Shown one piece after another: positions 6,809 to 9,280 of a DNA stretch of 10,919 nucleotides. The translations under genes were made by a program, and so were the position numbers. The number at the start of each line of letters is the position of its first letter. Position 1 is the stretch's first letter. The notes under the pieces were generated by a model. It was not told the DNA's origin. It was given only the letters and a program-made list of their open reading frames with translations, and did no database searches. The DNA comes from a virus (lineage: Duplodnaviria > Heunggongvirae > Uroviricota > Caudoviricetes): IMG/VR virus record IMGVR_UViG_2558860161_000005. One strand, given 5' to 3'.

Positions 6809-9280
6809 ATGAGTAAAGTCTTTATTTGCGCCGCTATTCCTGACGAACTGGCAACAAGGGAAGAAGGCGCTGTGGCTGTAGCCACAGCCATTGAAGCTGG
6901 CGACGAACGCCGTGCTCGAGCAAAATTTCACTGGCAATTCCTGGAACATTATCCGGCTGCTCAGGACTGCGCTTATAAATTTATTGTCTGCGAGGATAAA
7001 CCTGGCATACCCCGCCCTGCCCTCGATTCATGGGATGCTGAATATATGCAGGAAAACCGCTGGGATGAGGAGTCTGCTTCTTTTGTCCCGGTTGAGACTG
7101 AATCCGATCCGATGAACGTCACTTTTGACAAGCTGGCCCCTGAAGTACAGAACGCTGTCATGGTTAAGTTCGACACATGTGAAAACATCACCGTTGATAT
7201 GGTTATTAGCGCACAGGAATTGTTGCAGGAAGACATGGCAACATTCGACGGACATATCGTTGAAGCGTTGATGAAAATGCCAGAAGTTAACGCCATGTAT
7301 CCGGAGCTTAAGTTGCACGCCATTGGGTGGGTTAAGCATAAATGTATTCCTGGTGCTAAATGGCCCGAAATTCAGGCAGAGATGCGCATCTGGAAAAAAC
7401 GTCGCGAAGGTGAACGCAAGGAAACCGGAAAATACACGTCTGTTGTTGATCTCGCCCGCGCCAGAGCCAATCAACAGTACACTGAAAATTCAACAGGAAA
7501 AATCAGCCCGGTCATTGCTGCCATTCATCGCGAATACAAGCAGACATGGAAAACACTGGATGACGAACTGGCCTACGCTCTCTGGCCTGGTGATGTGGAT
7601 GCCGGAAACATTGACGGCAGCATCCATCGCCGGGCAAAAAATGAAGTTATCGACAACGACCGCGAAGACTGGAAGCGTATCTCGGCATCAATGCGCAAAC
7701 AGCCTGATGCCCTTCGCTACGACCGCCAAACTATTTTTGGCCTTGTCCGTGAGCGTCCGATCGACATTCACAAAGATCCCGTAGCACTGAACAAATATAT
7801 CTGCGAATACCTGACGACAAAGGGCGTGTTTGAGAATGAAGAAACAGACCTGGGCACTGTTGATGTTCTCCAGTCATCAGAAACACAAACTGATGCAGTG
7901 GAAACTGAGGTATCTGATATCCCAAAAAATGAAACCGCGCCGGAAGCTGAACCATCTGTAGAGCGTGAGGGGCCGTTCTATTTCCTCTTCGCAGATAAGG
8001 ACGGAGAAAAATACGGTCGCGCAAACAAACTTTCTGGTCTGGATAAGGCACTGGCTGCTGGCGCCACTGAAATCACAAAAGAAGAATATTTTGCCCGAAA
8101 AAATGGCACATACACGGGCTTACCGCAAAATGTAGATACCGCTGAAGATTCAGAACAACCAGAGCCGATAAAAGTTACCGCTGACGAAGTAAACAAAATT
8201 ATGCAGGCAGCCAATATCATCCAGCCTGACGCCGATAAGTTGCTTGCTGCATCACGTGGTGAATTTGTTGAAGGGATTAGTGACCCGAATGATCCGAAAT
8301 GGGTTAAGGGGATCCAGACCCGCGATTCTGTGAACCAGAACCAGCATGAATCGGAACGGAACTACCAAAAAGCGGAACAAAACAGCCCAAATGCGTTACA
8401 AAACGAGCCAGAAACGAAACAGCCTGAATCAGTGGCGCAACAGGAAGTGGAAAAAGTCTGCACCGCCTGCGGTCAGACCGGCGGCGGCAACTGCCCTGAT
8501 TGTGGCGCGGTAATGGGCGACGCAACATACCAGGAAACATTCGATGAAGAGTATCAGGTTGAAGTTCAGGAAGATGATCCGGAGGAAATGGAAGGCGCTG
8601 AACATCCACACAAGGAGAACACTGGCGGCAATCAGCATCACGATAGCGATAATGAAACTGGCGAGACGGCAGATCACTCAATTAAGGTGAACGGTCATCA
8701 AGAAATCACATCCACCAGCAGGACGTGTGACCATCTAATGATCGACCTTGAAACCATGGGAAAAAATCCTGATGCCCCGATCATCTCAATAGGTGCAATA
8801 TTTTTCGATCCGCAAACCGGAGATATGGGACCGGAATTTAGTAAGACTATCGATCTGGAAACTGCTGGCGGAGTCATTGATCGGGACACCATTAAATGGT
8901 GGCTTAAGCAATCACGCGAAGCGCAATCTGCCATTATGACCGATGAAATCCCGTTAGATGATGCACTGTTACAATTGCGGGAATTTATCGACGAAAACTC
9001 CGGTGAATTTTTTGTTCAGGTCTGGGGAAATGGAGCCAACTTCGACAACACGATTTTGCGCCGTTCATACGAACGGCAGGGGATCCCCTGCCCGTGGCGT
9101 TACTACAACGATCGCGATGTACGCACAATCGTTGAGCTGGGGAAAGCCATAGACTTCGATGCCAGAACGGCTATTCCATTCGAAGGTGAGCGCCATAATG
9201 CACTTGATGACGCCCGTTACCAGGCAAAATACGTTTCAGTTATCTGGCAAAAACTGATCCCGAGTCAGGCTGATTCTTAA
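6809..9280 (+). CDS. Full-length YdfE-like protein (about 823 aa): N-terminal domain of unknown function, acidic linker with a Cys4 zinc ribbon, C-terminal DnaQ-like DEDDh 3'-5' exonuclease domain
   Basis: Likely start ATG 6809 (SD GAGG 6797-6800); the track ORF begins at TTG 6773, and ATG 6794 is an alternative. Exonuclease motifs: D-L-E from 8744, [17 protein letters not shown]. Zinc ribbon [16 protein letters not shown] at about 8459-8506. The N-terminus [20 protein letters not shown]... is what I recall for the K-12 ydfE pseudogene product, which is truncated there. Confidence 0.8.
   Translation: [823 protein letters not shown]

What the first reader, a model, noticed from the sequence alone, without database searches (positions are those of the whole stretch)
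6809..9280. Intact 823-aa YdfE-like protein with a DEDDh 3'-5' exonuclease domain, in the lambda exo position but with no annealing-protein partner
In the dicB operon the gene order dicB (division inhibitor), ydfD, this gene, xis, int mirrors lambda kil, gam/bet/exo, xis, int. Instead of a RecE or lambda-Exo type 5'-3' nuclease plus an annealing protein, there is one large protein whose C-terminal roughly 180 aa carry DnaQ-like motifs (D-x-E, [17 protein letters not shown]). A C-x2-C-x7-C-x2-C zinc ribbon and a long acidic linker precede it, and the roughly 330-aa N-terminal domain is unassigned. In K-12 this gene is, as far as I recall, a truncated pseudogene, so a full-length copy is the place to look for function. 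A 3'-5' polarity would not give the 3' tails used by annealing-based recombination, which argues for a different role such as anti-defence, RNA or signal-nucleotide degradation, or end processing.
Basis: partly seen in the sequence, partly recalled or inferred. Interest (0 to 1): 0.7.

Follow-up and report, generated by a model that had tools for sequence, protein, structure and literature searches.

The report
RecE-type scaffold carrying a 3'-5' exonuclease
This very common E. coli prophage gene encodes a relative of the recombination enzyme RecE whose usual 5'-3' nuclease has been replaced by a DexA-like 3'-5' DNA exonuclease, and it works without an annealing-protein partner; its biological role has not been tested.

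Summary
Window 6809-9280 (+) is an intact 823-aa gene, the full-length form of K-12 pseudogene ydfE. It sits in the order dicF-dicB-ydfD-gene-xis-int. Residues 642-813 are a PF16473 (Rv2179c/DexA-like) DEDDh exonuclease domain (E=2.5e-67). D646, E648, D746, H796 and D801 are invariant in homologues.

Residues about 262-625, including the CxxC-x7-CxxC zinc ribbon and the acidic linker, align with RecE 278-591. Homology stops at RecE residue 588, where the RecE nuclease domain begins. A complete standalone phage DEDDh gene is fused there. A Chi site lies in the 60-nt junction.

The same scaffold family carries other C-terminal modules: a PD-(D/E)XK 5'-3' nuclease, a probable Rad52-like annealase, RecT, or an unknown module.

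No annealing protein is linked: 0 of 80 related loci, two divergent lineages, and the active phages Tritos and HannyBb.

Structured modules are under purifying selection (dN/dS 0.09-0.23). The linkers are nearly neutral (about 0.86).

Best reading: a DNA 3'-end-processing nuclease of the early-left operon in Chi-rich phages that rely on host RecBCD. Main rival: a DexA/EcD-like nuclease against phages with modified DNA. The gene is already annotated as an exonuclease and was listed as a nuclease-only module in 2025.

The parts
6809..9280 (+). Full-length ydfE-type gene, 823 aa plus stop. A multidomain RecE-family scaffold with a C-terminal DEDDh exonuclease.
   Evidence: ORF list. Identical PGAP CDS 'exonuclease'. 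PHROG 2082 full-length match. Matches of at least 80% coverage in 3537 of 5426 complete E. coli genomes.
6809..7543 (+). N-terminal domain, aa 1-245 (Pfam PF27430 'YdfE_N' type). Fold unknown.
   Evidence: PHROG 5943. Precomputed Pfam labels. 100% identical to K-12 YdfE 1-256. AF2 pLDDT below 50, yet dN/dS is 0.13. In vB_EcoS-813R8 it is replaced by the RecE-type N domain PF06630.
7544..7843 (+). Helical domain, aa 246-345, shared with RecE (RecE about 278-345) and with all family members.
7961..8128 (+). Small beta/alpha domain, aa 385-440 (EREGPFYF...), flanked by disordered linkers (346-384 and 441-469).
   Evidence: AF2 pLDDT 81-94. dN/dS 0.085, against 0.86 in the flanking linkers. Present in many but not all family members.
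8234..8302 (+). Family-wide conserved motif, aa 476-498: [23 protein letters not shown]. Possibly a partner-binding peptide.
   Evidence: Near-identical in RecE. P493 is nearly invariant in 52 family representatives. dN/dS 0.12. pLDDT only 60-77.
8459..8503 (+). Zinc ribbon, C551-x2-C554-x7-C562-x2-C565.
   Evidence: Regex hit on the translation. Conserved in RecE as CNACGQTGGDNCPDC. dN/dS 0.13.
8525..8722 (+). Acidic disordered linker, aa 573-638. RecE homology ends inside it, at window 8675 (RecE aa 588).
   Evidence: 19 D/E against 3 K/R. pLDDT below 50. dN/dS 0.87. blastn to Rac recE covers 8233-8675 only.
8712..8719 (-). Chi site (GCTGGTGG on the - strand) in the 60-nt junction between the RecE-like and DEDDh-like DNA.
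   Evidence: Pattern count and sequence. A Chi also lies in the corresponding part of the vB_EcoS-813R8 and Tritos genes. Standalone-DEDDh DNA homology starts at 8736.
8732..9247 (+). DEDDh 3'-5' exonuclease domain (PF16473, Rv2179c/DexA-like), aa 642-813. Catalytic residues D646, E648, D746, H796, D801.
   Evidence: Pfam E=2.5e-67. All five residues invariant in 11 homologues at 25-75% identity, including a T4-type DexA. PDB sequence and profile hits to T4 DexA 8KEL. Foldseek hits to RNase T, Orn, Cap18 and RNase AS.
6114..6716 (+). Upstream genes of the same operon: DicF sRNA (6114-6165), dicB (6340-6528), ydfD (6525-6716).
   Evidence: Rfam RF00039, 76.7 bits. Annotation of the identical locus. 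No + strand promoter-like site between dicB and the gene. dicB is upstream in 77 of 80 related loci and ydfD in 71 of 80.
9353..10919 (+). Downstream excisionase (9353-9604) and tyrosine integrase (9639-10919). No gene lies between the exonuclease and xis.
   Evidence: ORFs. Annotation.

Best explanation
The gene encodes a phage early-left-operon DNA 3'-5' exonuclease built on the RecE-family scaffold.

Shown: the architecture. It consists of a YdfE_N domain, a helical domain, a small beta/alpha domain, a conserved peptide motif, a zinc ribbon and an acidic linker, all shared with RecE and its relatives. A complete DexA-like DEDDh domain follows, fused exactly where the RecE 5'-3' nuclease would start.

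Shown: the gene is co-oriented with dicF-dicB-ydfD, with no intervening promoter-like site, and it never has a linked annealing protein.

Inferred: it is expressed on prophage induction, when DicA repression is lifted. The scaffold brings the nuclease to the same DNA ends or partner that RecE-type proteins address. The DEDDh domain removes 3' single-stranded tails or resects 3' strands of DNA.

Inferred: in these phages (the 'Tritos' class) there is no annealase and no anti-RecBCD gene, and Chi sites are abundant. The most likely use is therefore as an accessory to host RecBCD/Chi/RecA recombination-dependent growth. It could blunt 3'-tailed ends so that RecBCD can load, or trim 3' flaps. It would not act as a Red/RecET-type annealing recombinase.
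For: - DEDDh identity and intact catalytic residues.
- Scaffold homology to RecE that ends at RecE aa 588.
- Among 52 long family representatives, the same scaffold carries PD-(D/E)XK nucleases (15), a probable Rad52-like annealase (16), DEDDh (8), RecT (1) and an unknown module (6). Both N-domain types occur with the DEDDh, PD-(D/E)XK, Rad52-like and unknown modules.
- All variants occupy the same slot: kil/dicB, then the fusion, then xis and int.
- A standalone homologue lies in the order erf-ssb-DEDDh-abc2 in Salmonella phage g341c. Genome Res 2025 (PMC12315714) independently counts DnaQ-like nucleases as Rec-module genes and lists a nuclease-only, Chi-rich 'Tritos' class.
- Phage Tritos carries a 98.9% identical copy, has no annotated annealase, and has 9 top-strand Chi sites against 0.7 expected.
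- None of 80 related loci contains RecT, Bet, Erf, Exo, Gam, Abc2 or SSB.
- The nearest solved and characterised relatives are DNases: T4 DexA and EcD.
- Every structured module is under purifying selection.
Against: - No biochemical or genetic data exist for this protein.
- DNA rather than RNA as substrate is inferred from relatives only. PF16473 also contains the exoribonuclease Rv2179c/RNase AS.
- 3'-5' exonucleases usually inhibit recombination, as PMC12315714 notes.
- The RecBCD-assisting step is my own inference.
- Standalone DnaQ-type genes also occur in phages that have full Rec modules.
- The scaffold has no recognisable fold or known partner.
- The EcD result suggests a defence role for a 40%-identical relative.
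Confidence: 0.4

Rival explanations
1. Defence or superinfection-exclusion nuclease. Like the E. coli DexA homologue EcD ('HREX'), the DEDDh domain would selectively digest incoming phage DNA that carries modified bases (5hmC or others). This would benefit the lysogen and explain why so many E. coli genomes keep the gene intact.
For: - NAR 2025 (PMC12153337): EcD digests the T4 genome but not unmodified dsDNA, and protects E. coli from T4.
- The EcD forward primer maps to a 193-aa prophage '3'-5' exonuclease' that is 40% identical to this domain (E=7e-41).
- Copies covering at least 80% of the gene occur in 3537 of 5426 genomes, often in defective prophages.
- DicB, in the same operon, is known from the literature (recalled, not checked here) to confer phage resistance.
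Against: - The aromatic residue equivalent to DexA W152, needed for 5hmC recognition, is Tyr766 here. It is Trp in the EcD-like and standalone forms.
- The D90 equivalent, whose loss defines the dimer-only EcD type, is retained as D718.
- The gene lies in the repressor-controlled early-left operon with no promoter-like site of its own.
- No PADLOC model matches.
- This reading does not explain fusion to a RecE scaffold that is otherwise attached to recombination effectors.
Confidence: 0.2
2. Self-sufficient annealing-type end joining. A processive 3'-5' dsDNA exonuclease would expose complementary 5' tails on two linear ends, and these would anneal without a dedicated annealase. E. coli XthA-dependent in vivo cloning works this way (from my own knowledge). 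The RecE-type scaffold would supply the end-bridging function that makes full-length RecE good at linear-linear recombination.
For: - The scaffold is shared with RecE. According to the review PMC11611040, full-length RecE specifically enhances linear-linear recombination.
- T4 DexA and EcD act on dsDNA.
- No annealase is linked in any context examined.
Against: - No evidence shows that the domain is processive on duplex DNA.
- 5'-tailed intermediates cannot prime synthesis.
- Sister proteins that carry an annealase on the same scaffold show that annealing is normally protein-assisted in this family.
Confidence: 0.12
3. Anti-defence or nucleic-acid clearance. The nuclease would degrade RNA, oligonucleotides or linear signalling nucleotides, or host DNA fragments for nucleotide salvage (the T4 DexA scavenging role).
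For: - PF16473 is named after an exoribonuclease. Fold neighbours include RNase T, oligoribonuclease/REXO2 and the CBASS-associated Cap18.
- DexA has a host-DNA scavenging role.
Against: - By sequence the domain is much closer to DexA than to Rv2179c. Rv2179c was not recovered at E <= 0.001 even with a profile.
- A temperate lambdoid phage does not degrade its host genome as T4 does.
- The large conserved scaffold with a zinc ribbon, shared with recombination proteins, has no explanation under this reading.
- No defence or anti-defence neighbours are present.
Confidence: 0.1

Closest known systems
RecE (exodeoxyribonuclease VIII) of the Rac prophage, E. coli K-12
   Same: - The same operon slot, after kil and before xis-int.
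- A homologous central scaffold: query 262-625 aligns with RecE 278-591 at 39% overall and is near-identical from 474. It includes the [10 protein letters not shown] motif, the zinc ribbon and the acidic linker.
- In phage vB_EcoS-813R8 the N-terminal domain is also RecE-type, 59% identical over RecE 50-591.
   Different: - The C-terminal PD-(D/E)XK 5'-3' nuclease (RecE 589-866) is absent and replaced by a DEDDh 3'-5' exonuclease.
- There is no recT downstream.
- The N-terminal 245 aa are of the YdfE_N type, not the PF06630 type.
- The NCBIfam RecE equivalog scores 284 bits against a cut-off of 1269.
- Several phage records nevertheless annotate the protein as 'exodeoxyribonuclease VIII'.
T4 DexA (PDB 8KEL) and E. 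coli EcD ('HREX'), PF16473 DEDDh DNA exonucleases
   Same: - The same Pfam family and the same five catalytic residues.
- DexA is the only PDB hit by sequence.
- 40% identity to the EcD-like prophage protein.
   Different: - DexA and EcD are standalone proteins of 190-227 aa. Here the domain is the C-terminal quarter of an 823-aa protein.
- The DexA W152 equivalent is Tyr766.
- The extra loops of DexA are absent.
Standalone DnaQ-like nucleases of lambdoid phages (g341c/epsilon34 gene 29, mEp460, LLS gp34)
   Same: - 56-60% identical to residues 641-821.
- Located either inside erf-ssb-abc2 Rec modules or directly upstream of xis-int.
- DNA homology to them begins at about their codon 4, which indicates that a whole gene of this kind was fused.
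   Different: They are not fused to a scaffold. They retain Trp at the DexA W152 position.
Lambda Red (Exo+Bet) and RecET two-component recombinases
   Same: The same genomic position in the early-left operon, and a nuclease acting on DNA ends.
   Different: The nuclease has the opposite polarity and an unrelated fold. No annealase and no Gam are present.

Membership tests
PF16473 Rv2179c-like / DexA-type DEDDh 3'-5' exonuclease | Profile match above the curated gathering score | tested here: met
   226.4 bits against a cut-off of 27, E=2.5e-67. Residues 642-813 cover profile positions 2-177 of 177.
PF16473 Rv2179c-like / DexA-type DEDDh 3'-5' exonuclease | Five catalytic residues D-E-D-D-h in three Exo motifs | tested here: met
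   D646, E648, D746, H796 and D801 are invariant in an 11-sequence alignment at 25-75% identity that includes a T4-type DexA.
PF16473 Rv2179c-like / DexA-type DEDDh 3'-5' exonuclease | DnaQ/RNase T-like fold | tested here: met
   Foldseek of the AF2 model hits RNase T (E=2.4e-5), Orn/REXO2, Cap18 and RNase AS, with TM(target) 0.45-0.64. The domain pLDDT is only 58-87.
PF16473 Rv2179c-like / DexA-type DEDDh 3'-5' exonuclease | Mg-dependent 3'-5' exonuclease activity and substrate (DNA or RNA) | not testable with these tools
   Needs purified protein.
RecE / exodeoxyribonuclease VIII (NCBIfam NF007259 equivalog) | Full-length equivalog score | tested here: not met
   283.8 bits against a cut-off of 1269. 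Only residues 246-625 match, to model positions 271-602.
RecE / exodeoxyribonuclease VIII (NCBIfam NF007259 equivalog) | C-terminal PD-(D/E)XK 5'-3' nuclease domain (RecE 589-866, PF12684) | tested here: not met
   No Pfam or phmmer hit. Homology to RecE ends at RecE residue 588-591.
RecE / exodeoxyribonuclease VIII (NCBIfam NF007259 equivalog) | Central scaffold with GISDPxDPKW motif, zinc ribbon and acidic linker | tested here: met
   BLASTP E=1e-62, near-identical over 474-625. 78% DNA identity over window 8233-8675.
RecE / exodeoxyribonuclease VIII (NCBIfam NF007259 equivalog) | Adjacent recT annealase gene | tested here: not met
   xis follows after 72 nt. 0 of 80 related loci have one. 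None is found in Tritos, HannyBb, vB_EcoS-813R8, or the loci encoding the more distant homologues P0239 and P0142.
HREX / EcD-type anti-phage exonuclease (PMC12153337) | DexA-like catalytic domain | tested here: met
   40% identity, E=7e-41, to the prophage protein matched by the EcD forward primer.
HREX / EcD-type anti-phage exonuclease (PMC12153337) | Trp equivalent to DexA W152 for 5hmC recognition | tested here: not met
   The alignment places Tyr766 at this position. The EcD-like and standalone forms have Trp.
HREX / EcD-type anti-phage exonuclease (PMC12153337) | Loss of the DexA D90 equivalent (dimer-only form) | tested here: inconclusive
   The alignment places D718 at the D90 position, so the residue is retained. 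The region is loosely aligned, and quaternary structure cannot be predicted here.
HREX / EcD-type anti-phage exonuclease (PMC12153337) | Protection against modified-DNA phages | not testable with these tools
   Needs plaque assays.
YdfE (E. coli K-12 b1577) | Sequence identity and locus | tested here: met
   100% identity over residues 1-256. Same neighbours: dicB, ydfD, intQ and rspB. The K-12 copy is cut by IS2E.

The most novel reading that the evidence does not exclude
The RecE/YdfE scaffold is a modular delivery platform. Its conserved domains and the invariant GISDPxDPKW peptide would dock onto one common target: a DNA-end structure, or a host or phage replication/recombination protein. 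Evolution has plugged interchangeable effectors onto it: a 5'-3' nuclease, a 3'-5' nuclease, a Rad52-like annealase, RecT, and an unknown module. Chi-stimulated recombination at the linker may have helped these swaps. On this reading the DEDDh version defines an annealase-independent phage strategy in which a viral 3'-5' exonuclease prepares DNA ends for the host's Chi-activated RecBCD pathway. It would also explain what the long-mysterious RecE N-terminal 588 residues do.
Probability: 0.2. Interest if true: 0.7.

Novelty: new variant of a known kind. Interest (0 to 1): 0.5.

Why it matters
- Full-length copies occur in about two thirds of complete E. coli genomes, and also in Stx-phage-associated prophages, yet nobody has tested the protein.
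- It is a natural domain-swap experiment on RecE. The same scaffold is joined at RecE residue 588, the boundary used to make truncated RecE for recombineering, to a nuclease of opposite polarity.
- This makes the unknown function of the RecE N-terminal region directly testable. That region improves linear-linear recombination and direct cloning.
- It could reveal how Chi-rich lambdoid phages with no annealase and no anti-RecBCD gene use host RecBCD.
- It also corrects a widespread misannotation as 'exodeoxyribonuclease VIII', which wrongly implies a 5'-3' dsDNA exonuclease.

Tried and rejected
- AF2 of the full protein with a 75-sequence alignment left the N-terminal 240 aa below pLDDT 50, so no fold could be assigned.
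- PADLOC gave no hit.
- Literature searches for ydfE and for DicB+YdfD+exonuclease found no functional study. One search was wasted because 'RecE' matched 'receptor'.
- The full-length homologue search returned only 88-94% identical E. coli proteins in its listed top 120 hits. Diversity came from the representative search instead.
- The EcD reverse primer had no exact match in viral contigs. EcD was therefore located only through its forward primer, so the identity of the protein I compared with EcD itself is probable, not proven.
- The idea that the third C-terminal type is a Rad52-like annealase rests on repeated sub-threshold Pfam hits (E=0.03, 0.11, 0.12) at one motif and on depositors' annotations. 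A PDB profile search found nothing.
- I rejected 'RecT deleted here', because complete active phages and divergent lineages also lack it.
- I rejected 'pseudogene or decaying', because of the dN/dS pattern.
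Full report
**Observation.** Window 6773-9280 (+) is one long ORF. The ATG at 6809, preceded by GAGG 9 nt upstream, gives 823 aa. This matches the PGAP protein WP_016242145.1 'exonuclease' in an identical stretch of E. 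coli A38, where the prophage abuts rspB, the Qin attachment region. These are D646-L-E648, W739GNGANFD746 and H796NALDD801ARY. There is also a C551-x2-C-x7-C-x2-C565 zinc ribbon and a linker (573-638) with 19 acidic against 3 basic residues. The local map is DicF sRNA (6114-6165, Rfam 76.7 bits), dicB, ydfD, this gene, excisionase, integrase. K-12 ydfE is 100% identical over residues 1-256 and is then cut by IS2E.

**The C-terminal domain.** Pfam places residues 642-813 in PF16473 (Rv2179c-like 3'-5' exoribonuclease domain) at E=2.5e-67, covering the whole profile. I aligned 11 homologues at 25-75% identity. They included fusion proteins, standalone genes from Escherichia, Salmonella, Vibrio, Xanthomonas and Pseudomonas phages, and a T4-type DexA. 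All five DEDDh residues are invariant. The only PDB chains found by sequence are T4 DexA (8KEL/8KEN; E=1.6e-6 with the single sequence). A profile gives E=1.5e-41, but that profile included a DexA orthologue, so the value is inflated. Rv2179c itself is not recovered at E <= 0.001. The AF2 model of the domain has moderate confidence and hits RNase T, oligoribonuclease/REXO2, Cap18 and RNase AS. The nuclease assignment is therefore solid. Polarity and substrate are inferred from the family.

The NCBIfam RecE model matches residues 246-625 to model positions 271-602. The score of 284 bits is far below the equivalog cut-off of 1269. BLASTP against K-12 RecE aligns 262-625 with RecE 278-591. From residue 474 the two are almost identical, including [30 protein letters not shown], the zinc ribbon and the acidic tail. 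At the DNA level, similarity to Rac recE covers window 8233-8675 and ends at RecE codon 588. The review PMC11611040 places the RecE nuclease domain at residues 564-866 and calls the N-terminal part 'of unknown function'. DNA similarity to standalone phage DEDDh genes starts at 8736, about their fourth codon. So a whole standalone DEDDh gene has been joined in frame to the RecE scaffold, across a unique 60-nt junction. That junction contains a Chi site (8712-8719, - strand). In phage vB_EcoS-813R8 the N-terminal domain is also RecE-type, 59% identical to RecE 50-591. Its C-terminal part, from about residue 454, is nearly identical to the one here. That protein is in effect RecE with its nuclease exchanged.

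**The family.** A search with residues 1-640 against 1.84 billion cluster representatives found only 250 proteins at E <= 0.001, so the family is narrow. I classified the 52 members of at least 450 aa by module.
- There are two N-terminal types: YdfE_N (PF27430) and RecE-type (PF06630).
- The C-terminal types are a PD-(D/E)XK nuclease (PF12684, 15 members), a module I read as Rad52-like (16), DEDDh (8), an unknown 'type 4' (6) and RecT (1). Six members are unclassified or truncated.
- Both N-terminal types occur with the PD-(D/E)XK, Rad52-like, DEDDh and type 4 modules. RecT was seen once, on the RecE-type N domain.

The Rad52-like reading rests on limited evidence. The invariant motif is GEAxKKSLTDAxKKALSxLGFSADVxLGLYD. 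Rad52_Rad22 is the top Pfam hit for three separate sequences, but below threshold (E=0.03, 0.11, 0.12). Depositors label standalone homologues 'DNA repair protein' or 'single strand-annealing protein', in one case next to a putative nuclease. A PDB profile search found nothing. All variants sit in the same place, between a kil-type gene and xis-int.

**Structure and selection.** AF2 gives high confidence only for a helical domain (246-345, pLDDT 90-96) and a small beta/alpha domain (385-440, 81-94). The N-terminal 240 residues and three linkers score below 50. Neither confident domain has a significant structural neighbour. I computed pairwise dN/dS by region across 75 distinct alleles.
- N-terminal domain: 0.13.
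- Helical domain: 0.17.
- Small beta/alpha domain: 0.085.
- Motif region 470-500: 0.12.
- Zinc ribbon: 0.13.
- DEDDh domain: 0.23.
- Linkers 346-384, 441-469 and 573-638: 0.86-0.87. Linker 501-548 is 0.28.

Every structured module, including the unmodelled N-terminal domain, is therefore constrained. The caveat is that the alleles are related and recombining, so these are descriptive ratios.

**No annealing partner.** In the window, xis follows 72 nt after the stop codon. I examined 80 IMG/VR loci with full-length copies at 90% identity or more and up to 10 kb of flank. phmmer found no RecT, Bet, Erf, Rad52-like module, lambda Exo, RecE nuclease, Gam, Abc2 or SSB. dicB is upstream in 77 of these loci and ydfD in 71. 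The xis/int type varies. Two divergent DEDDh fusions (P0239, P0142) have the same context. The complete phages HannyBb (99.1% identity) and Tritos (98.9%) show the same order, and the whole Tritos genome has no annotated annealase.

**Literature.** No paper in the library deals with YdfE function. Two recent papers bear on the gene.
[quoted passage not shown] It describes 'RecE-2' proteins that lack a nuclease domain. It also defines a four-phage 'Tritos' class with a nuclease but no annealase, SSB or anti-RecBCD gene, and with many Chi sites. I count 9 top-strand and 2 bottom-strand Chi sites in Tritos, against about 0.7 expected per strand.
- NAR 2025 (PMC12153337) shows that T4 DexA and an E. 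coli homologue, EcD, are DNA exonucleases. EcD digests 5hmC-containing T4 DNA but not unmodified DNA, and it protects cells from T4. The EcD forward primer maps to a 193-aa prophage gene in a P2-like element. The domain here is 40% identical to that protein.

**Mechanism.**
- Shown: the architecture, the conserved catalytic residues, the operon position, the missing partner, and the selective constraint.
- Inferred: the gene is expressed with dicB on induction, because no promoter-like site lies between them.
- Inferred: the substrate is DNA 3' ends, because the closest characterised relatives are DNases and the scaffold is otherwise attached to DNA-recombination effectors.
- Inferred: its role is as an accessory to host RecBCD/Chi recombination in phages that lack an annealase and an anti-RecBCD gene. 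It could, for example, remove 3' tails so that RecBCD can load.

I put about 0.4 on this reading. The main rival (0.2) is an EcD-like defence role. Against it: the DexA W152 equivalent is Tyr766, the D90 equivalent is retained as D718, the gene sits in a repressed operon, and no PADLOC model matches. Annealase-free end joining through 5' tails (0.12) and RNA, nucleotide or scavenging roles (0.1) remain possible.

**Novelty.** The gene is already annotated as '(3'-5') exonuclease'. It has a PHROG (2082) and new Pfam families (YdfE_N, YdfE_C), and it was tabulated as a nuclease-only module in 2025. I did not find the following described:
- the exact RecE relationship, with the swap at residue 588;
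- the Chi site in the junction;
- the combinatorial scaffold-effector family;
- the selection pattern;
- the probable annealase fusions.

It is a new variant of a known kind. It is of moderate interest mainly because it makes the function of the RecE N-terminal region testable.

Noticed in passing
window 8712-8719 (- strand); L003 7067; L009 27079: A Chi site (GCTGGTGG) lies in the 60-nt unique junction between RecE-like DNA (which ends at 8675) and standalone-DEDDh-like DNA (which starts at 8736). A Chi also lies in the corresponding part of the vB_EcoS-813R8 and Tritos genes. The standalone DEDDh genes of LLS and 1720a-02 have a Chi near their 3' ends. The window has 2 Chi on the - strand and 0 on the + strand, against 0.17 expected per strand.
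   Followed up: partly
proteins P0129, P0135, P0136, P0154, P0165, P0184, P0189, P0193, P0213, P0230, P0257, P0264; L098 2708-4873 (phage ZF40 gp07): About a third of the scaffold family carries, in place of a nuclease, a ~270-aa C-terminal module with the invariant motif KKSLTDAxKKALSxLGFSADV. Its best Pfam hit, below threshold, is Rad52_Rad22, and its standalone homologues are annotated as DNA repair or single-strand-annealing proteins. These may be the 'RecE-2 proteins lacking a nuclease domain' of PMC12315714. They would be scaffold-annealase fusions, often followed by a Sipho_Gp157 gene.
   Followed up: partly
proteins P0126, P0267, P0133, P0259, P0263, P0269; L103 5001-7109: A further C-terminal module ('type 4', with the tail motif YQQQLTIAALHGLCANPA) occurs on the same scaffold. 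It has no Pfam hit, and its only PHROG match is to the function-unknown family 26058.
   Followed up: no
protein P0204 (703 aa): One cluster representative joins a K-12-like RecE N-terminal region (1-270, plus the motif) directly to a RecT domain. This may be a deletion that fuses recE to recT.
   Followed up: no
L095 4989-5570 (E. coli 2013C-3033): The published anti-T4 exonuclease EcD (PMC12153337) maps, by its forward primer, to a gene in a P2-like prophage, between an integrase/regulator region and a Dam methylase and replication endonuclease. The word 'prophage' does not occur in the paper's main text. The reverse primer had no exact match in viral contigs.
   Followed up: partly
L010 3309-4271 (Vibrio phage VP58.5 gp33): A 320-aa DEDDh exonuclease has cysteine-pair (zinc-ribbon-like) segments on both sides of the catalytic domain. 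The pairing of a zinc ribbon with this nuclease domain therefore recurs independently of the RecE scaffold.
   Followed up: no
window about 1545-2312: An IS1 element (insA 1600-1875, insB 1794-2297) interrupts a SAM-dependent DNA methyltransferase gene on the - strand. Fragments of that gene remain at 1307-1558 and 2291-2440.
   Followed up: no
phage records (Tritos, PhiR42_1, vB_EcoS-813R8 and others): Many deposited phage genomes label this protein 'exodeoxyribonuclease VIII' or 'ds DNA exonuclease'. That name implies the RecE 5'-3' PD-(D/E)XK activity, which the protein lacks.
   Followed up: yes
window 6160-6324 vs L005 (Rac) about 9250-9416: The DNA between DicF and dicB is 79% identical to the region next to kilR/kilS in Rac. 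The two kil-type loci therefore share upstream sequence, although DicB and KilR are different proteins.
   Followed up: no
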